The position numbers and the translations under genes were made by a program. 40,353 nt of DNA from a virus, in IMG/VR virus record IMGVR_UViG_3300021387_000033, positions 1 to 40,353 of that record; one strand, 5' to 3'. The notes under the pieces are model-generated. The model ran no database searches. It saw only the letters and a program-made list of their open reading frames with translations, and was not told the origin of the DNA. Positions 8,021 to 31,290 of the stretch are shown piece after piece; position 1 is the stretch's first letter, and every line of letters begins with the position of its first letter.

Positions 8021-8872
8021 ATGGCTATTACAGTAGCAACACAAAAAATATGGCATAAAGCTTACGAACACGCTTTAAAAGAAATTACTTCATTAAGAAA
8101 TCACTGCGATTTTAAATACGAAAAGGATGCACAAAATGCTGATACAGTTTATATCTTAAATGCAGTTAGACCAACAGTACGTACTTATGTACCTGGTACT
8201 GCAATTACTAGAGATGCAGTAGATGCAACTAGACAAGCATTAGTACTAGACCAATTCAAATATTTCAATATTGAAATGGACGACGTATATAAAGCACAAA
8301 CTGTTCCTGGTGCATTAGAAGCATCTGCTCAAGAAGGAGCTCAAGCATTAGCATTAGAAGGAGACAAATATGTAGCATCATTAATCAAAGCTGGTGCAGA
8401 ATCACAAACTGACCCATTAATGTCAACTACAAGAATTACTGCAACAAAAGCAAATTCTATTGATACTATTGAAGAAGCATTTGCAATGTTATACGCAAAA
8501 AATAACAGACCAAATGACTCATATTGGTTAGAAGTTGCACCTTCATTCTACAAATTTGTTAGACCTAATATGATTGAAGTATTAACTAACAACGTAGAAT
8601 TAGCTAAAAATGGTGCAGTAGGAAAATATGCTAACGCATTTGTAGGAATTGATAACTCATTACCTACAACTAAAGTTGGTTCTGGTTCTACTGATGATAC
8701 AGTTTACAATGTATTAAGAACTACTCACGCTATTGCTTTTGCTGAACAAATTAAGAAAACTGAAACTTATAGAGTACAAGACGGATTCTCAGATGCAATC
8801 AAAGCTCTATATGTTTATGGTGCTAAAATCGTAAGACCTGATGAAATTGTAGTAATTCCAACAGCTATATAA
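8021..8872 (+). CDS. Major capsid protein (putative)
   Basis: 283 aa after the scaffold gene, with a strong RBS, followed by an intrinsic terminator. Confidence 0.75.
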   Translation: MAITVATQKIWHKAYEHALKEITSLRNHCDFKYEKDAQNADTVYILNAVRPTVRTYVPGTAITRDAVDATRQALVLDQFKYFNIEMDDVYKAQTVPGALEASAQEGAQALALEGDKYVASLIKAGAESQTDPLMSTTRITATKANSIDTIEEAFAMLYAKNNRPNDSYWLEVAPSFYKFVRPNMIEVLTNNVELAKNGAVGKYANAFVGIDNSLPTTKVGSGSTDDTVYNVLRTTHAIAFAEQIKKTETYRVQDGFSDAIKALYVYGAKIVRPDEIVVIPTAI

Positions 8873-15800: not shown

Positions 15801-18197
15801 GTCAAAACAAAATCTAAAGAATGGGTAGATGAAAATAAAGATAAGTTTGATTTAACTACTTCTGACGTCGACTTTATTATGGATACAATGGAAAAAGTAT
15901 CAAAAATGGAAGACGGATACGAAAAAAAAGTTGAGTTAGCAAAAATTCAAAAATTAATGAGTGATAAGATTCCACCTACAATTAGTAAATCAATAAAAGG
16001 TTTTATGAGAATCTCAATGCTATTTAACCCAAAAACACAAGTAAGAAATGTATTAGGAAATACATTAATAGCTCCAGTTAATTTAGTAGGAGATATTGCT
16101 TCATCTGTAGCTGATAAAGCAATAGCAAAAAAGACTGGCGTAAGAACAACAGGTACAGCAGATATAAAATCAATGTTAAAAGGTTTTAAAAAAGGTGCTT
16201 ATGAAGCAACAAACGATTTTAAATTAGGTATAAATACAAAAGATATGAACGGTAACAAATTTGAAATTGGTGAAGGTAAATCATTTAGTGATAAATACGC
16301 TATTGGTAGAGGTTTGAATAAAGTAGAACATTTATTAAACTACACAATGGACATAGGCGATAGAGTATTCTATGAATCTTGGTTTGAAAATTCTTTAGCA
16401 AATCAAATGGCATTAAATAAAGTAGATACTCCTACTCAAGAAATGATAGACATTGCGACAACTGAAGCATTGCAAAGAACTTGGAATGATAACAATAAAT
16501 ATACAAAGTTTGTACTTGACATAAGAAAAGGAATAAATAGCGTTCTTGGTGGAGAAGATTATGGTTTAGGTGACGTGCTTATACCATTTGCAAAAACACC
16601 TGCAAACTTAACAAAAGCAATTGTTGATTATTCTCCTGTTGGTATGGTAAATGCTTTAGTTCAAGGAAATAATTTGAAAAAAGCAATTTCTAGAGGAGAT
16701 ATGACACCACAACAACAACATAAATTTGTTCAAACATTAGGAAAAGCGACTGCAGGAACTATGTTATATATTTTAGGATATGCGTTAGCAAAAACAGGAG
16801 TTTTAACTGGAAAAGACGATGAGGATAAAGATACAAAGAACTTTATGAAAAATGTTTTAGGAATTAATCAATATTCAGTAAAAATTGGAAATACTTCGTT
16901 TACTTATGACTGGGCTCAACCAATATCAGCACCGTTTGCAATGATGACTAATTTAGTAAATAGTAGAAATAAAGAAACAGCATTGTTAGAAAGCGTTGTA
17001 GCATCATTAGACACTGCTGGAAGCATTTTATTAGAACAGTCATTCTTACAAAGTATAAACGAAGTATTAACTGATAATAATGGTGTTGTTTCAGGATTAT
17101 TAAATGCCGTATTAGATTTACCAGCAAGAGCAATTCCAACTTTATTTAAACAAGTTGCAGATTTAGCAGACCCAGTTCAAAGACAAACATTTGAATATGG
17201 AAAGCCATTACAAACTGCAGGAGAAAAAATGTTGGTTAAGATTCCTGGAGCAAGTAAATTATTATCTCCTAAAGTAAATACTATGGGTGAAGACATATTA
17301 AAATATGGTGGAAAGAACAACGTGTTTAATGTTATGTTTAATCCAGCAAACGTAAATAAGGAAAATGTTAATGAAGTAGGACAAGAAATATATAATGTTT
17401 ATAAGTCTACTGGAAAAAAAGACGTTATGCCTAGAGTTGCACCATATTATATAAACAAGAAAAATGGTGAAAAAGTACAACTAAGTTCTTCTCAAATAGC
17501 AGAGTTCCAAAAAATGGAAGGAAAAGAAATAGAAAATAATATTAAAGATATAATGAAAAATTCAAACTATAAGAATTTAAGCAACGAAAAGAAAGCTGAA
17601 TTAATAAAAAATATAGTAAATTATTCATATAATTTAACTGAAAATAAAATGTTTGGAATTGAATTGTCTTCATCATATAAAACAGTAGAAAACGTTAAAG
17701 AAAAAGGTGGAGATATTGGAGAATATTATTTATACAAAGCACAATTAGGTGAAAAAGATAGTGAATATACAAAAAGAAAAAAATTGAGATTATCTAATAT
17801 TTCTAAAAAAACAAAAAGTGCTATTTACGAAGCATCAGTTGACAACGATAATGAAAAAAATACATATAATTTATATAATGTATTGAAAGAAAATGATATA
17901 GGTATAAATGAATATTTAGATTATTTAAGTATAGAGTTTAAAGGAGATAAAGACGAGAACGACGAAACAATTAGAGGTAGTAAAAAAAATAAAATTATTG
18001 ATTATTTGAACAATTCTAATTTAACTTATGTACAAAAATTATTGATTGCAGGAAGACAATTTACATTGGGAAATGAAGAACAAGAAATTGTATTTAATTT
18101 AATTAATAACTCTAATTTAAGTAGTAAAGAAAAAATGGAGTTATTAGATTCATATAACGGATTTAAAGTTGATAAAAATGGAAATGTAAGGTGGTGA
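12816..18197 (+). CDS. Giant virion-associated protein (1793 aa; ejection/polyvalent-like)
   Basis: A single uninterrupted ORF in the structural module, taking the place of a tape measure. No catalytic motif identified with confidence. Confidence 0.5.
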   Translation: MTKKKYDEDLENIFNGKYNYSKYEVEQKEERKKSLNELEEERNSRNSLLKISQNKLQEDLNKKNINGRVFGKHIEAESAPSRNELKVGNKFAESENDNTSSLKTRPYDKNALLKDVESVKKVRQYGNNEEEQSLIKDVKKKWSDRAYAISDYETAKAIQDEENMNPVSRLGYSLYSGGKSLFKSFVRGDLQTEDGITLDSYNDAINSKMGQRSKVYQIPSELGKEVVKSGLNKVVPGLGTALYTTDIMQRTYNDAKKEGYSDNSAILYGLLVGGMDYALNKIGTDVSTRFAKGGVSLDTKQTILENLVDKGLKKVIKNKAMENIATSFVSNGLEEWSQEYIQDFLKYYSLDVLDKGASATPLDFIKSEKESDVNQRAIESFIVGGFVGGIGGGFGELNLTKQQRNTQQAIYDYERQTGHELSNANQNTIAMIAKTYQENVKRTPNSKEILDTFKNIRQSQIDTFQKPALEMFTDLDEKHRTEYNNLVNDVSQIIYDTGINVKFDPNQQTVINSENGTIILNPTLTDMPIKNVLLHEISKQTADNDTKNYILNKLKKDGVYETYKNELLATGEFDEANVDSEIVAQELDAIFQNENEIKELAQKDKGLFNSIKDTFNTLTGKLTNNRNTKDALYFREINDRINSLYGKGDLNDLNKISKETKNNTKYEEKPLEIDKNGATVDNKQQQLDIINKSNQAPNETNTWIRNKEDIKTFKEAYDTAKAESEDGGWENYASYPDITNEMVDKALETGKITVYSSYPIENGVFVTPSYQQALDYAGNDKSKVNSKEVNLDDIAWINLDEGQYAKVESQSKQEIEKQTVEKEKKKKILSPTEIANLKPEDANMTPELQKKKYNKKGDGESKQVETLLKSNLFTDEQKQRIIKDEEFRKYDKITNKESLDKAFEKLKNGGQSETLRWFNNKENADAIDMAEGAILMKMYADNGMNDQMVEVAKKFRDMKTKTGQALQASSILSRMTPEGMVAYAQSELTEAYNELVKTKSKEWVDENKDKFDLTTSDVDFIMDTMEKVSKMEDGYEKKVELAKIQKLMSDKIPPTISKSIKGFMRISMLFNPKTQVRNVLGNTLIAPVNLVGDIASSVADKAIAKKTGVRTTGTADIKSMLKGFKKGAYEATNDFKLGINTKDMNGNKFEIGEGKSFSDKYAIGRGLNKVEHLLNYTMDIGDRVFYESWFENSLANQMALNKVDTPTQEMIDIATTEALQRTWNDNNKYTKFVLDIRKGINSVLGGEDYGLGDVLIPFAKTPANLTKAIVDYSPVGMVNALVQGNNLKKAISRGDMTPQQQHKFVQTLGKATAGTMLYILGYALAKTGVLTGKDDEDKDTKNFMKNVLGINQYSVKIGNTSFTYDWAQPISAPFAMMTNLVNSRNKETALLESVVASLDTAGSILLEQSFLQSINEVLTDNNGVVSGLLNAVLDLPARAIPTLFKQVADLADPVQRQTFEYGKPLQTAGEKMLVKIPGASKLLSPKVNTMGEDILKYGGKNNVFNVMFNPANVNKENVNEVGQEIYNVYKSTGKKDVMPRVAPYYINKKNGEKVQLSSSQIAEFQKMEGKEIENNIKDIMKNSNYKNLSNEKKAELIKNIVNYSYNLTENKMFGIELSSSYKTVENVKEKGGDIGEYYLYKAQLGEKDSEYTKRKKLRLSNISKKTKSAIYEASVDNDNEKNTYNLYNVLKENDIGINEYLDYLSIEFKGDKDENDETIRGSKKNKIIDYLNNSNLTYVQKLLIAGRQFTLGNEEQEIVFNLINNSNLSSKEKMELLDSYNGFKVDKNGNVRW

Positions 18198-28224: not shown

Positions 28225-28712
28225 TTATCCTCCTTAACAGTACTTATACCGTTTTCTTCACATTCTTTAATAATTCCGTCCATAAACCTTCCAAATTGAA
28301 TTGTATCCATTTTTCTAGAAGGGACGTATATTTTATAAAATGTATATTCTTTACCATTATTTCCTATTCGTTTATCAATTTCATCATAATAATCAAAATA
28401 TTTTTCAGGCTCTATTTCACTTAATAAAGATACTATATCGTAATCACTATATTCTTTAATCATATGCTCGTGTAATTCATCATTACCTAAGTTTAACTTT
28501 TTAGCTAGGTTCTTTTGTAATACCCAACTCATATCATTTTGAGATAATTTTCTTTTTCTAGTTTGTTTTGCTAAATCTACATTAATTATATCCGTATTTG
28601 CAAGTTTTTCTAGTTCGTCTACGTCGTATATATCTAGAATCTCTATTGTTATTTTAGGTCTTTTAGTTATATAGTCTCTAGATATATCTAATATCTTACC
28701 AGTAGTTTTCAT
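28221..28712 (-). CDS. Hypothetical protein (163 aa)
   Basis: Supplied ORF, with an ATGA overlap to its neighbour. Confidence 0.5.
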   Translation of the reverse strand: MKTTGKILDISRDYITKRPKITIEILDIYDVDELEKLANTDIINVDLAKQTRKRKLSQNDMSWVLQKNLAKKLNLGNDELHEHMIKEYSDYDIVSLLSEIEPEKYFDYYDEIDKRIGNNGKEYTFYKIYVPSRKMDTIQFGRFMDGIIKECEENGISTVKEDK

Positions 28713-28900
28713 TGTAAAATTATATTTTTAATTTCATAGACACTATTTCTAAGCATCTTTTTAAATTTTATAAAATGTTCTACTTGCATAGGTTCACATA
28801 TAATTATTGTTTTAGTTTTCTCGTTGTAATAAATTTCATAAATTAAATTTTCATAAACTCTTTTCAAATCTTTGTTATCCCATATAGTTATCTTCTTCAT
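28709..28900 (-). CDS. Hypothetical protein (63 aa), first gene after the RNA array
   Basis: Supplied ORF with a GGAAGG RBS. Confidence 0.55.
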   Translation of the reverse strand: MKKITIWDNKDLKRVYENLIYEIYYNEKTKTIIICEPMQVEHFIKFKKMLRNSVYEIKNIILQ

Positions 28901-28920
28901 AAAAATACCTTCCTATCTTA

Positions 28921-29046
28921 TAAAAAAACAAGGCACTTACATTACGTGCTCTACCATTCTGAGCTATTTATCATACTGATAAAGTTGGAATCGAACCAAC
29001 GACACCGAGGTTACAAGCCTAAGTATTTATTTGCTGAATGTGCCTT
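28921..29046 (-). ncRNA. tRNA-like domain B: circularly permuted tRNA-Thr(UGU)-like, closed by the stem AAGGCAC/GUGCCUU plus U7
   Basis: Minus-strand order is: anticodon arm (29022-29006, loop CUUGUAA), variable GUGUC, T arm GUUGG-UUCGAUU-CCAAC (29000-28984), acceptor hairpin UUUAUCA-GUA-UGAUAAA (28983-28967), UA, D arm GCUC-AGAAUGGUA-GAGC (28964-28948). Confidence 0.7.
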
Positions 29047-29069
29047 TATATTATTTATTTATTAAACAA

Positions 29070-29169
29070 GACTCATTATTTTAGTAATCTCTTAATCCTC
29101 TTGAGTATATGAAATTATCATAGTTGGAGTTGAACCAACGAATATTACTTAACTTTTGCTGTACGAGTC
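29070..29169 (-). ncRNA. tRNA-like domain A: YrlA-style permuted tRNA mimic without an anticodon loop
   Basis: AGUAA-UAUUC-[GUUGG UUCAACU CCAAC]-[UAUGA UAAUU UCAUA]-UA-[CUC AAGAGGAUUAA GAG]-A-UUACU, closed by an outer stem GACUC/GAGUC. Confidence 0.7.
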
Positions 29170-29261
29170 TTTAATTTATTTTCTTTTTAAACAAGGCTAT
29201 CTAATAATCCAAATTAACAGCTTGGGACAAATATTGGTTGTCAAAATAGTTGCAGTAATAG

Positions 29262-29378
29262 CCTTTATTTTAATGAATACCATAGAATAGATATAATAGA
29301 TAGCAACGTCCATAACCCACGCTATCATAAGGTTTTAAGGCTTATATATCTACTCTACGCTACCCATTAAAGGATAGC
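29262..29378 (-). ncRNA. X module copy b
   Basis: H1 is GCUAUCC-UUUAAU-GGGUAGC. H2 is GUAGAGUAGAUAUA / UAUAUCUAUUCUAU. Tail is GGUAUUC-AUUAAA, complementary to the H1 loop. Confidence 0.6.
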
Positions 29379-29419
29379 AGTAAAATAACGAACTACATTT
29401 AATTGAAGTGCAAATTCCA

Positions 29420-29600
29420 AACTAAGATGCACCACGAAATATATGTTTTGGAGATAATGGTATAAAAATGATAAATTGTGCGACAAATACCAAAACAATA
29501 AAAAACATAAATAGATAAAAACAATAATATGCATGAATACATTAATTTAATAAAATACCATTATAACATATATTTCGTGCTTCACCTTAATTGGTCAAGC
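29420..29600 (-). ncRNA. X module copy e
   Basis: H1 is GCUUGACC-AAUUAA-GGUGAAGC. H2 is ACGAAAUAUAUGUU+AUAAUGGUAU paired with AUACCAUUAU-(CUCCAA bulge)-AACAUAUAUUUCGU. Tail is GGUGCAUC-UUAGUU, complementary to the loop AAUUAA. Confidence 0.6.
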
Positions 29601-29643
29601 ACTTTCTTGTATCCTGCAAGTTAAGGATTGCAATTTCCTAGTA

Positions 29644-29776
29644 CTTTAATAAGCACCACCTAATAGATAAATAATTTAAACTATGTAATCACCACAAAAT
29701 ATAGTTCAGGAAAAATATAAATTTGCCCATTCTTTTTATTATATTTATCTACTAGGTGCTACCAATTAAGGTAGCA
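29644..29776 (-). ncRNA. X module copy a
   Basis: H1 is UGCUACC-UUAAUU-GGUAGCA. H2 is CCUAGUAGAUAAAUA / UAUUUAUCUAUUAGG. Tail is UGGUGCUU-AUUAA. Confidence 0.6.
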
Positions 29777-29800
29777 AAATATTAATTATAAAAGGTGAAC

Positions 29801-29881
29801 AAAGGACTTTCTATCTTCATTAGCAGTGAAGTGCAATTTAGTTCCCAAAACTAACGCTTTTTGTTTGCTGTATTGTCCTTT
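29801..29881 (-). ncRNA. 5' domain closed by AAAGGAC/GUCCUUU and containing an anticodon-stem-loop mimic
   Basis: CUUCA-CUGCUAA-UGAAG (29831-29815) has the canonical C32 U33 NNN A37 A38 loop format. A second hairpin is UUAGUU-UUGGG-AACUAA. Confidence 0.45.
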
Positions 29882-29904
29882 TAAGTAACTTAATTGTAAC
29901 ACTT

Positions 29905-31290
29905 TTATTCTTTATAATCAATATCTTTTTTATATTTTTCTAGAATCTTGTCAATATATGTTGTCATATCAAAGTTGTTTTCTAGTAATTTTAATATTTG
30001 TAAATTATAACCACTTAAGTAAATGTTTCCATATTCGTCAAATTCTGGAACTGTCTTATTTCTATCATTAAAATTCCACCAAATTAATTTTGTATTAGCT
30101 TCGTGTTGTTTAAAGATATTCATTAATTCTTCCTTGCTTTGACGTGAACCATAATCAAATTCCATATCACTCATTACGATTATATATTCAGGATATTTTT
30201 TTAATCCTTTTAATAAATCCATAACTTTACCAAAATCAGTATTTGAACAATCTCCAGTATACATTGAATCATATTGTTCTTTTAATGTATTACCTTTAAT
30301 TGTCATTAATTGAGGATTTGATGAGAATGATATTAATTGATTTGGTGCATAAGTAGAATGAGTAGCTAATGCGTGACATACTGACATAGCTCTTACTCCA
30401 ATATCGTTTGGATTAGAATAATCTCTTCCATAAAAACTAGAATACATTGAACCTGAAGTGTCTAAAACACAAATAGCGTTCATTTCTACTCCTAAAGTAG
30501 CATTATCTACTATTTTCTTTCCAATAATATCATTAGCTTCTGCGTTAGATTTTGTTGCTGTCTTATATGCGTCGTGTACGTTTGCAGTAGCTACATTTAC
30601 TTTAGCCTCATTATTCTTAACTTTTTCTATATATTCTTTAAATCTAGGAGAAATATCTTCTCTAGTGTTAAATGTATTTAAATATTTAGTCATTGCAAGA
30701 GAAGGTACTTCTTCGAAATCAATTTCTCCAACTAATGGGTGAACATAATTACCTTGCTTAAATAATTCATTTAATGGAGTTCCTTCTACTTCTTCAGCAT
30801 AAGATAATTTATATTCAACTGTTGAATCGGTTTTAATTAATTTTCTATATTCTTTTTCAGTTATTCCCCACATTTTACATAATGCTTTAGCAATTCTTTT
30901 ATCTTTACCAGTTAATCTAGGCATCCATTTTTTAGCTAATTCATTACCAGTTAATGAAGTTTTTAAAAATGCAATATTTTCATCAGTAGGAATATGCCAT
31001 AAATCGTCATATCTACCAGCTCTTACTACATTGTAAGGTTCTACTTCTGATAATTCCATTAACTTTCTACCTAAATCTCTTCTACCTAAACCAAATCTAG
31101 GGTCTCTAACAAACATTGAAAATAATTTTTCTTTTTCAGATTTTCCAATTTTTACTTCGTCTAAGTTCTTTTCGAAAAATGGAGTCATAAAGAATAAGTC
31201 AGTTAAATTATTTCCTGTAGTCTTATAAGCTACGTCTCCATTTTCAGTTCTTTTTGTGTTTAATATTTTTTGTAATTCATTCATTTTCAT
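29905..31290 (-). CDS. DUF2828-type TROVE/vWA-like protein (461 aa)
   Basis: N-terminal RTENGDVAYKTTGNNLTDLFF, central EVPSLAMTKYLNTF, C-terminal vWA with a MIDAS-like VLDTSGS. Family assignment is from memory of DUF2828 signatures. Confidence 0.6.
   Translation of the reverse strand: MKMNELQKILNTKRTENGDVAYKTTGNNLTDLFFMTPFFEKNLDEVKIGKSEKEKLFSMFVRDPRFGLGRRDLGRKLMELSEVEPYNVVRAGRYDDLWHIPTDENIAFLKTSLTGNELAKKWMPRLTGKDKRIAKALCKMWGITEKEYRKLIKTDSTVEYKLSYAEEVEGTPLNELFKQGNYVHPLVGEIDFEEVPSLAMTKYLNTFNTREDISPRFKEYIEKVKNNEAKVNVATANVHDAYKTATKSNAEANDIIGKKIVDNATLGVEMNAICVLDTSGSMYSSFYGRDYSNPNDIGVRAMSVCHALATHSTYAPNQLISFSSNPQLMTIKGNTLKEQYDSMYTGDCSNTDFGKVMDLLKGLKKYPEYIIVMSDMEFDYGSRQSKEELMNIFKQHEANTKLIWWNFNDRNKTVPEFDEYGNIYLSGYNLQILKLLENNFDMTTYIDKILEKYKKDIDYKE

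What the first reader, a model, noticed from the sequence alone, without database searches (positions are those of the whole stretch)
29262..29776. New repeated RNA module (X): hairpin, long variable insertion stem, GGUGC, pseudoknot strand; three copies with compensatory changes
- Each copy starts with a 7-8-bp hairpin H1 with an A/U loop: UGCUACC-UUAAUU-GGUAGCA, GCUUGACC-AAUUAA-GGUGAAGC and GCUAUCC-UUUAAU-GGGUAGC.
- A long stem H2 follows immediately. Its sequence differs between copies but stays paired: CCUAGUAGAUAAAUA/UAUUUAUCUAUUAGG; ACGAAAUAUAUGUUAUAAUGGUAU/AUACCAUUAU..AACAUAUAUUUCGU; GUAGAGUAGAUAUA/UAUAUCUAUUCUAU.
- Then comes a conserved GGUGC (GGUAU in copy b), 2-3 nt, and a segment complementary to that copy's own H1 loop: UUAAU:AUUAA, AAUUAA:UUAGUU and UUUAAU:AUUAAA.
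- The loop and tail change together, which argues for an H-type pseudoknot with a structured insertion.
- A G-U wobble at the same H2 position (GUAG opposite CUAU) is kept in copies a, b and c.
- The interiors vary from 35 to about 130 nt.
- I cannot match this to any riboswitch, ribozyme or leader family I know.
Basis: seen in the sequence. Interest (0 to 1): 0.87.

Follow-up and report, generated by a model that had tools for sequence, protein, structure and literature searches.

The report
New three-hairpin phage RNA family

Summary
The window has five copies of module X: three on the minus strand (29776-29640, 29600-29407, 29378-29264) and two on the plus strand (2884-3027, 3077-3164).

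The anatomy needs one revision. "GGUGC" is the 5' strand of a third hairpin, H3, and the "tail" is the H3 loop. X is therefore H1, then a long insertion-tolerant H2, then H3, with H1-loop:H3-loop pairing.

More than 150 distinct copies occur in uncultivated viral contigs and gut Bacilli genomes. H1, H2, H3 and the loop-loop helix all show compensatory changes. In 116 copies, 21 of 21 pairs change on both sides and 0 of 500 shuffles reach the observed scores.

Copies are intergenic, co-oriented with neighbouring genes and rich in G-U pairs, so they act as RNA. No Rfam family and no cultured phage matches.

Most copies lie far from any Ro-like gene, so X is not tied to the DUF2828 protein. X clusters with tRNA genes and Y-RNA-like units. 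About 10% of H2 arms carry tRNA-like T-arms.

My best guess is a modular, stable, protein-binding RNA (about 0.4). Processing or stability signals are the main rival. A nested alternative fold exists but lacks compensation.

The parts
29640..29776 (-). X copy a. H1 29776-29757 (loop UUAAUU 29769-29764). H2 29757-29742 paired with 29673-29658, with a 68-nt interior. H3 is GGUGC 29657-29653, loop 29652-29645, GUACU 29644-29640. Loop-loop pairs are 29769-29765 with 29650-29646.
   Evidence: Sequence. The minimum-free-energy fold gives H1+H2+H3, z -5.2. CM hits of 23.0 and 14.8 bits.
29407..29600 (-). X copy b, the most divergent. H1 29600-29579 with one G.G mismatch (loop AAUUAA 29592-29587). H2 29578-29555 paired with 29463-29434, with a bulge. 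H3 is GGUGC 29433-29429, a 17-nt loop, GCACU 29411-29407. UUAGUU 29425-29420 pairs with the H1 loop in a register shifted by 2 nt.
   Evidence: Sequence. Fold z -5.7. The CM hit is only 12.0 bits, E 0.48.
29264..29378 (-). X copy c. H1 29378-29359. H2 29358-29345 paired with 29295-29282. GGUAU 29281-29277. CAUUAAA 29275-29269 pairs with UUUAAUG 29371-29365. The H3 3' strand is degenerate (AUAAA 29268-29264) and runs into the next Y-like unit.
   Evidence: Sequence. CM 28.0 bits, E 3e-6. Fold z -4.5.
2884..3027 (+). X copy d. H1 2884-2901. H2 2902-2916 paired with 3000-3014. The interior carries a T-arm-like hairpin, GUAGG-UUCGACA-CCUAC, at 2983-2999. GGUGC 3015-3019. Tail 3020-3027. Loop-loop pairs are 2890-2895 with 3021-3026. 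A possible distant H3 3' strand is GCACC 3071-3075.
   Evidence: 35.8 bits; z -6.6.
3077..3164 (+). X copy e. H1 3077-3094. H2 3095-3109 paired with 3137-3151. GGUGC 3152-3156. Tail 3157-3164. There is no H3 3' strand. The tail runs into the ribosome-binding site AAGGAG 3163-3168 of the terminase-small-subunit-like ORF (ATG at 3176).
   Evidence: (39.7 bits, E 6e-10).

Best explanation
X is a genuine, strand-specific, independently folding RNA family carried by viruses of low-GC gut Bacilli.

What is shown:
- The conserved core is three abutting hairpins.
- H1 has 6-8 bp, consensus RUGCUAYC/GGUAGCAY, with an A/U loop.
- H2 has a conserved 10-14 bp base, a preferred G-U wobble at position 6, and an interior free to hold 14-240 nt.
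- H3 has 5 bp, GGUGC/GCACU.
- The H1 and H3 loops pair over 5-6 bp.

What is inferred:
- X acts as a stable, modular non-coding RNA rather than a riboswitch.
- The invariant core is a handle recognised by a phage or host protein.
- H2 is a display arm that sometimes carries tRNA-like domains. This is the same design logic as Y RNAs, next to which it sits in this window.
- The linkers are 0-1 nt, so H1, H3 and a 6-bp loop-loop helix fit poorly in one molecule. The loop contact may instead join two molecules hand in hand, or alternate with another fold.
For: The structure is real:
- In 116 distinct copies, 21/21 pairs of H1, H2 base and the loop-loop helix show changes on both sides.
- 97% of cells are paired. 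No shuffle (0/500) reaches the observed values. Slid registers give 35-58%.
- H1 and the loop-loop helix were confirmed in samples chosen without reference to them.
- H3 pairs 5/5 in 75 of 115 copies, and 0/2000 permutations reach the observed mean.

It works at the RNA level:
- All true copies are intergenic.
- They are co-oriented with the downstream gene in 55/62 cases and with the upstream gene in 50/59.
- G-U pairs are common, for example 85/116 at one H2 position.
- Where the CM also reported the complementary strand of a copy (L066), it scored about 34 bits lower.

It looks like a stable RNA gene:
- In the window it lies inside an array: Ro-like gene, Y1, Xa, Xb, Xc, Y2, Y3, then a YrlA-like unit.
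- tRNA genes lie within 350 nt on the same strand in about 14 of 60 loci.
- A terminator-like hairpin follows within 90 nt in 29/115 copies, against 5.4% of random windows.

It is modular:
- H2 interiors are unrelated in sequence.
- 12/116 interiors hold T-arm-like hairpins, against 0.5 expected.
- ARAGORN calls a tRNA inside one interior.
Against: - There are no expression, processing or binding data.
- No conserved promoter lies at a fixed distance upstream.
- About 20% of copies sit directly in front of a ribosome-binding site, and in a few the H3 3' strand is replaced by it (window copy e, L043, L052, L103). This fits a cis role in mRNA.
- Neighbouring genes are diverse: scaffolding protein, terminase, RusA, SSB, methyltransferase. 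No partner protein emerges.
- 90% of H2 arms are not tRNA-like.
- The steric argument for dimers is reasoning only.
Confidence: 0.4

Rival explanations
1. X is a cis-acting processing or stability signal that punctuates phage polycistronic transcripts. The long conserved H2 duplex, stacked on H1, would be an RNase III-type or other endonuclease site, or a block to exonucleases. It would define and protect mRNA and ncRNA ends, as the RNase III sites of T7 and SP82 do (the comparison is from memory).
For: - Copies are always intergenic and co-oriented with their neighbours.
- They often sit just before highly expressed late genes such as scaffolding protein, terL and terS.
- They occur in tandem and between units of ncRNA arrays that must be cut apart.
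- They sit between a gene-end hairpin and a second terminator-like hairpin in several loci.
- There is no promoter of their own.
- The H2 base is sequence-conserved with a fixed G-U.
Against: - RNase III needs neither H1/H3 nor a covarying loop-loop helix.
- The tRNA-like cargo and the clustering with tRNA genes are not explained.
- No cleavage data exist.
Confidence: 0.25
2. X is a second class of partner RNA for the phage Ro-like (DUF2828/DUF7788) protein, that is, a structurally new Y RNA.
For: - Three window copies lie in the array directly downstream of the Ro-like gene.
- X is found downstream of the homologous gene in 9 of 30 related loci: L001-L004, L006, L009, L013, L015, L027.
- It has a modular handle-plus-tRNA-like-arm design like YrlA.
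Against: - Only 3 of 120 X-bearing stretches contain a Ro-like gene within the DNA fetched.
- Two window copies are 26 kb away, in front of terS.
- X lacks the terminal stem and the ACAGCAAA-type motif shared by the neighbouring Y-like units.
- X gives no YrlA hit.
Confidence: 0.12
3. X is a cis-regulatory leader. It could be a ligand- or protein-responsive pseudoknot controlling translation of the next gene, in the manner of preQ1-II. Or it could be a processive antitermination RNA that lets polymerase read through the terminators that often follow it, in the manner of put or EAR.
For: - A ribosome-binding site lies within 70 nt in 27/115 copies.
- In a few copies the tail abuts the ribosome-binding site.
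- Terminator-like hairpins follow in 25% of copies.
- The competing folds give a four-strand switch-like layout.
Against: - Downstream genes are unrelated in function.
- Many copies are followed by another X, a tRNA or a Y-like unit rather than a gene.
- There is no conserved unpaired pocket. The junctions are 0-1 nt.
- No riboswitch or antiterminator family matches.
- The alternative fold is not compensated.
Confidence: 0.12
4. X is a double-stranded DNA site (packaging, recombination or promoter/operator), or a mobile inverted-repeat element, and not an RNA.
For: - The H2 base is a 14-bp inverted repeat flanking variable DNA.
- Some copies lie near terS, where pac sites occur.
- Loops contain TATAAA-like strings.
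Against: - Orientation follows the transcribed strand.
- G-U pairs are abundant, which would be A.C mismatches on the other strand.
- Compensation is seen in four separate helices.
- Where reported, the reverse strand scores far lower.
- Promoter-like matches are at chance level.
Confidence: 0.03

Closest known systems
Bacterial/phage Y RNAs of the YrlA type (Rfam RF02553; Chen et al. 2014, PMC4201824)
   Same: - Both are modular stable RNAs, with a conserved protein-binding handle plus a variable module that can mimic tRNA.
- Both are encoded in small arrays beside a Ro-type gene in this window and in relatives.
- A true YrlA-like unit lies 230 nt from copy c (28919-29033, 48.3 bits).
   Different: - X has open 5'/3' ends instead of a closing stem.
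- It has no GNCGAAN0-1G or ACAGCAAA motif.
- Its handle is three hairpins with loop-loop pairing.
- It gives no CM hit.
- Most copies are not near a Ro-type gene.
H-type pseudoknots with a hairpin embedded in loop 3, e.g. the preQ1-II riboswitch (RF01054; comparison from memory)
   Same: - A hairpin loop pairs with a 3' segment directly abutting the stem.
- A structured insertion sits between the stem and the 3' segment.
- In a few copies the 3' segment touches the ribosome-binding site.
   Different: - There is no Rfam hit.
- The 3' segment is normally the loop of another hairpin.
- There is no consistent downstream gene.
- Copies occur in arrays with tRNAs.
- The insertion is huge and variable.
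   Same: - Two loops of one RNA are mutually complementary and covary.
- This geometry is most easily satisfied between molecules.
- The element is phage-encoded, and some copies sit beside packaging genes.
   Different: - There is no sequence or CM similarity.
- pRNA has a closing helix and a three-way junction.
- The host genome here has terS/terL, unlike the phi29 type.
- There are many copies per genome, and multimerisation is untested.
Purine-riboswitch-type three-way junction with L2-L3 loop pairing (from memory)
   Same: Two short hairpins flanking a third helix are held together by loop-loop pairs.
   Different: - The order is circularly permuted.
- The strand break falls where the ligand pocket would be.
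- The junctions have no unpaired nucleotides.
- The loop helix is 5-6 A/U pairs.

Membership tests
YrlA / Y RNA (RF02553) | Match to the family covariance model | tested here: not met
   No hit to any X copy at E<=10. The neighbouring unit at 28919-29033 does hit (48.3 bits, below the gathering score of 69).
YrlA / Y RNA (RF02553) | 5'/3' terminal stem carrying the Ro-binding motif (GNCGAAN0-1G, PMC4201824) | tested here: not met
   X has no closing stem. A candidate 5'-GUGC/GCAC-3' helix is absent in the second subfamily, from reading the sequences listed by eye. The ACAGCAAA-type motif of the adjacent Y-like units is absent from X.
YrlA / Y RNA (RF02553) | Encoded next to a Ro60-type gene | tested here: inconclusive
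   True for 3 of 5 window copies and for 9 of 30 Ro-gene loci. Only 3 of 120 X-bearing stretches hold such a gene. Whole contigs were not examined.
YrlA / Y RNA (RF02553) | tRNA-like domain | tested here: inconclusive
   A T-arm-like hairpin occurs in 12/116 H2 interiors, against 0.5 in shuffles. One interior is called a tRNA by ARAGORN. It is absent in about 90%.
YrlA / Y RNA (RF02553) | Bound by Ro60/Rsr | not testable with these tools
   Needs RIP or EMSA.
preQ1-II-type pseudoknot riboswitch (RF01054) | Covariance-model match and a conserved 5'-UTR context with the ribosome-binding site inside the pseudoknot | tested here: not met
   No Rfam hit. Downstream genes are unrelated. A ribosome-binding site lies within 70 nt in only 27/115 copies.
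H-type pseudoknot (structural class) | A hairpin loop pairs with a 3' segment while the hairpin stem is kept | tested here: inconclusive
   Both helices are maintained by compensation. Simultaneous formation cannot be shown, and a nested alternative fold exists.
phi29 pRNA (RF00044) | Covariance-model match and a phi29-like genome | tested here: not met
   No Rfam hit. The window encodes a Terminase_3 large subunit and a small-subunit-like ORF.
tRNA | Cloverleaf detected by ARAGORN or RF00005 over the X core | tested here: not met
   ARAGORN finds 0 genes in the window. Weak RF00005 hits fall on Y-like units, not on X.
Intrinsic terminator | GC-rich hairpin followed by a U run | tested here: not met
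   No terminator-like site in 28700-30000. The base after H3 is A in 72% of copies and no U run follows.
Known self-cleaving ribozymes (pistol, twister, hammerhead, HDV-like) | Covariance-model match or core motifs | tested here: not met
   No hit at E<=10. No CUGAUGA/GAAA core was seen by eye.

The most novel reading that the evidence does not exclude
X is a self-associating RNA scaffold. Each molecule's H1 loop pairs with the H3 loop of a partner and vice versa, giving a two-rod dimer (H1-kiss-H3 twice) with an H2 arm at each end. Phages would use it to display tRNA-like or other decoy modules in the fight over host tRNA and RNA-repair systems. It would form a new class of phage RNA alongside Y RNAs.
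Probability: 0.12. Interest if true: 0.85.

Novelty: new variant of a known kind. Interest (0 to 1): 0.6.

Why it matters
- It adds a well-supported, widespread structured RNA family to phage biology. The family has more than 150 distinct copies, up to five per genome, and no counterpart in Rfam or in cultured phages.
- It sits among tRNA genes and, in this lineage, among arrays of Y-RNA-like tRNA mimics next to a Ro-type protein. Such regions are suspected to serve RNA repair or counter-defence.
- Its core tolerates 14-240 nt insertions in one arm and has a reprogrammable loop-loop contact.
- If a partner protein or nuclease is found, it would explain a recurrent feature of intergenic regions in gut phages.

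Tried and rejected
- **BLAST against cultured phages.** The array, the plus-strand copies and a consensus X gave no match.
- **Rfam.** Gathering and E<=10 scans gave nothing for X.
- **Genome-collection scan with the 18-mer pattern.** Almost all hits were chance. Only 4 of 120 were true copies: Ca. Coprovivens, two uncultured Bacilli and one more locus, L236, whose source organism I did not look up.
- **Tail-only motif search.** GGTGCTTATTAAA with mismatches is at chance level in the window.
- **Promoter and terminator scans of both window regions.** Both were at chance level.
- **A fixed-distance promoter upstream of X.** None was found.
- **Nested 'Fold C'.** Here the H1 loop plus 3' strand pairs with the H3 5' strand plus loop. 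It is compatible with the alignment and is the minimum-free-energy fold for four copies. I rejected it as the selected structure because H1, not the s2:s3 segment, is compensated in an H1-independent sample. At the two informative positions the counts are 23/23 against 10/23.
- **A closing helix 5'-GUGC/GCAC-3'.** It is absent in the second subfamily and position -2 does not covary.
- **Pairing of one copy's H3 loop with the next copy's H1 loop.** It fails for copies a and b.
- **Other ideas considered by eye and dropped.** These were a Cas12a-repeat mimic, known ribozyme cores, a MITE/transposon and an integron attC.
- **Literature.** No paper links DUF2828 to phage RNAs. Supplements of two large structured-RNA surveys gave no match or are not held.
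- **PDB sequence search of the Ro-like protein.** It was uninformative.

Full report
**1. Observation**

The finding lies in a 1-kb gap without ORFs (28901-29904), between minus-strand genes.

All three copies are present as described, and so are the two plus-strand copies at 2884-3027 and 3077-3164. Each folds much better than dinucleotide shuffles, with z from -4.5 to -6.6. A covariance model built from relatives finds exactly these five in the window. Their scores are 39.7, 35.8, 28.0, 23.0 and, for the divergent copy b, 12.0 bits. The next hit (16162-16222, 16.6 bits, E 0.016) lies inside a coding region and is not counted.

There are small errors in the description:
- Copy b's H1 has a G.G mismatch.
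- GGUAU belongs to the third copy.
- The G-U wobble is in copies a, c and d but not in copy b.

**2. Revised anatomy**

Relatives show that GGUGC is the 5' strand of a third hairpin. Its forms include GGUGC-UUAUAAA(R)-GCACU, GGUAC/GUACY, AGUAC/GUACU, AGUAU/AUACU and GGUGU/GCACU. The 'tail' is the loop of that hairpin.

- H3 pairs 5/5 in 75 and 4/5 in 25 of 115 copies. No permutation (0/2000) reaches the observed mean.
- X is therefore three abutting hairpins with 0-1 nt linkers.
- H1 has 6-8 bp, consensus RUGCUAYC/GGUAGCAY, with a 4-7 nt A/U loop.
- H2 has a 10-17 bp conserved base and an interior of 14-240 nt.
- H3 has 5 bp and a 7-9 nt loop.
- The H1 loop pairs with the H3 loop in a fixed register.
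- In the window, copies a and b have a complete H3. Copy c's is degenerate, copy d's may close at 3071-3075, and copy e has a ribosome-binding site in its place.

**3. A large family with compensation in every helix**

The DUF2828-type protein recovered 30 viral loci. A pattern from the H2/H3 junction recovered another 119.

*First sample.* 69 copies were picked only by GGTAGC+AGTAGATA and closure of H2.
- The anchored loop-loop register gives 5.04 of 6 Watson-Crick pairs, against 4.34+-0.08 in permutations (0/5000).
- Slid registers give 2.0-2.6.
- One position splits 49 U:A, 15 A:U, 3 U:G and 2 non-pairs.

*Alignment A1.* On 116 distinct copies, all 21 pairs of H1, the loop-loop helix and the H2 base have changes on both sides.
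- 97.1% of cells pair.
- 0/500 shuffles reach any measure.
- Slid structures give 35-58%.
- This set required H1 and H2 to pair, so only the loop-loop helix (91.9% paired) is an unbiased result there.

*Second sample, independent of H1.* This set has 92 copies.
- H1 pairs 6/6 in 72 and 5/6 in 17.
- Variants are compensated, for example GGUUGC/GCAAYC, GCCAGC/GCUGGU, UCUAGC/GUUAGA and GGCAGC/GCUGUU.
- The loop-loop helix again beats all 2000 permutations.

**4. The competing fold**

RNAfold gives H1+H2+H3 only for copy a. For copies b-e it extends H2 by pairing the H1 loop plus GGUAGC with GGUGCU plus the H3 loop.

On A1 this nested fold is also highly compatible. It pairs 92.4% of cells, has one invariant G.G, and pair 30:59 is CG in 92 copies and UA in 23. 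The loop/tail covariation alone therefore does not prove a pseudoknot.

The H1-independent sample separates the two folds:
- Where the H1 3' strand departs from consensus, its H1 partner pairs in 42/48 cases and its nested-fold partner in 28/48.
- At the two informative positions the counts are 23/23 against 10/23.
- GGUGCU is GCUAYC with transitions. The residual complementarity therefore looks like a by-product of H1 and H3 being similar hairpins (my inference).

H1, H2, H3 and the loop-loop helix are each selected. Whether all form at once is unknown.

**5. It acts as RNA**

- All true copies are intergenic.
- The downstream large ORF is on the same strand in 55/62 cases, and the upstream one in 50/59.
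- Within the window, the orientation flips with the genes.
- G-U pairs are frequent and directional: G-U in 85/116 copies at H2 position 6, and U-G in 42/116 in H1.
- Where the model also reported the complementary strand of a copy (L066), it scored about 34 bits lower.

**6. Context**

*In the window.*
- The gene upstream is DUF7788+DUF2828, with a weak vWA_Ro60 match and a PHROG 'RNA-binding protein' match.
- Downstream of it lie four units of the form AAAGRC...(A/U)CAGCAA...GYCUUUG: 29801-29881, 29193-29265, 29068-29171 and 28930-29046.
- The last of these matches YrlA full length at 48.3 bits, E 2e-9.
- The three X copies sit between unit 1 and unit 2.

*In related loci.* Relatives of the protein are nearly always followed by such arrays. 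X is present in 9 of the 30 loci.

*Elsewhere.*
- Only 3 of 120 X-bearing stretches contain the protein.
- The next genes are scaffolding protein (at least 9), terL (5), terS (at least 4), RusA, SSB, methyltransferase and NinB.
- tRNA genes lie within 350 nt on the same strand in about 14 of 60 loci.
- A terminator-like hairpin follows within 90 nt in 29/115 copies, against 5.4% of random windows.
- Several copies sit between a gene-end hairpin and such a terminator.
- No promoter lies at a fixed distance upstream.

*Hosts and databases.*
- True copies in genomes come from Ca. Coprovivens and uncultured gut Bacilli.
- Cultured phages have none.
- Rfam has no match.

**7. Cargo**

H2 interiors share no sequence. 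Twelve of 116 contain a 5-bp stem with a UUCRANN-type loop, against 0.48 in shuffles with a maximum of 3. These usually lie next to the 3' strand of H2, as a T-arm lies next to an acceptor stem. ARAGORN calls a tRNA inside one interior. Window copy d has such a hairpin at 2983-2999.

**8. How it probably works**

*Shown:* a conserved three-hairpin core with a covarying loop-loop contact, an insertion-tolerant arm, and transcription with neighbouring genes.

*Inferred:* the core is a recognition handle and H2 is a display arm. X would then be a stable modular RNA in the manner of Y RNAs, and not a riboswitch. I put this at about 0.4.

The main rival is a processing or stability signal (0.25). 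Next come a Ro-like-protein partner (0.12) and a cis regulator or antiterminator (0.12). A DNA site is very unlikely (0.03).

*Geometry (inference only).* A coaxial H1-kiss-H3 stack is about 18 bp long, yet both of its ends must join the same end of H2 through 0-1 nt. That favours one of three options:
- an H-type pseudoknot without H3;
- a switch between folds;
- a symmetric dimer in which each H1 loop pairs with the partner's H3 loop.

**9. Novelty**

X fails the tested defining features of YrlA, preQ1-II, pRNA, tRNA, terminators and known ribozymes. It is a new family built from familiar elements. Two large surveys of candidate structured RNAs in phages and microbiomes may contain it unnamed, and I could not check.

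**10. Limits**

- Collection scans were capped, so counts are lower bounds.
- The pattern-based samples favour one subfamily.
- Only part of each contig was examined.
- The function rests on context alone.

Noticed in passing
window 28930-29881 (-), with the gene at 29905-31290 (-): A Ro-type (DUF7788/DUF2828) gene is followed by four Y-RNA-like units at 29801-29881, 29193-29265, 29068-29171 and 28930-29046. They share a closing stem AAAGRC.../...GYCUUUG and an (A/U)CAGCAA motif just after the 5' strand. The last unit is a full-length sub-threshold YrlA match with a permuted T-arm then D-arm order. The same arrays follow the homologous gene in about 30 viral loci, with interiors made of whole or partial tRNA-like folds. 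I found no paper linking DUF2828 to such RNAs.
   Followed up: partly
window 29921-29893 (-): A promoter-like TTGATT-17-TACAAT with an upstream TG lies right after the stop of the Ro-type gene. Similar TTGAYTATAAAG...TATAAT strings occupy the same place in L002, L004 and L006. This suggests the RNA array has its own promoter.
   Followed up: no
window 1614-2880: A 1.3-kb stretch without ORFs lies upstream of the plus-strand X copies. It has three near-consensus minus-strand promoters (TTGACT-17/18-TATAAT/TACAAT at 1899-1871, 1724-1696 and 2211-2182), each next to a repeated 'AATTATAGCATAACTTAA...AAGTCAAG' string. It also has G-rich, possibly structured segments at about 2340-2400 and 2680-2735.
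   Followed up: no
L034 2986, L046 2874, L047 (-) 1886, L087 5438, L107 744, L132 9686, L138 2841 and others: A second X subfamily has H1 CACUAYCU/AGGUAGUG, H2 base (A)UACUGAUGAUAUA/UAUAUCAUUAGUA(U), an extra C, and H3 AGUAY/RUACU. It keeps the G-U at H2 position 6 and the G-C at position 9. It often stands next to a copy of the main subfamily.
   Followed up: partly
L080 8937-9029; L041 about 869-1000; L118 about 2388-2520: In these loci the H2 interior is an almost complete cloverleaf, with a D-arm, a T-arm and an odd anticodon region containing GCGUACGCAAU. H2 takes the place of an extended acceptor stem. ARAGORN calls the L080 one tRNA-Arg(acg).
   Followed up: partly
L066, L070, L043, L092, L127, L132, L039 (just 3' of X): A conserved hairpin plus ribosome-binding site, UGGGC(A/U)ACCAUACCCAGAGGAG, follows directly after H3 in several unrelated loci. 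It may be a second conserved leader element.
   Followed up: no
L034 about 8600-8800; L141, L203, L223, L094, L133, L073: X is sandwiched between a hairpin plus U run that overlaps the stop codon of the upstream gene and a second terminator-like hairpin (AAGUCGAU...AUCGGCUUUUUU) a few nucleotides after H3. The head scaffolding gene follows.
   Followed up: partly
L039, L062, L092, L127, L132: The order X, tRNA-Arg(CCU), terminase large subunit recurs in these loci.
   Followed up: no
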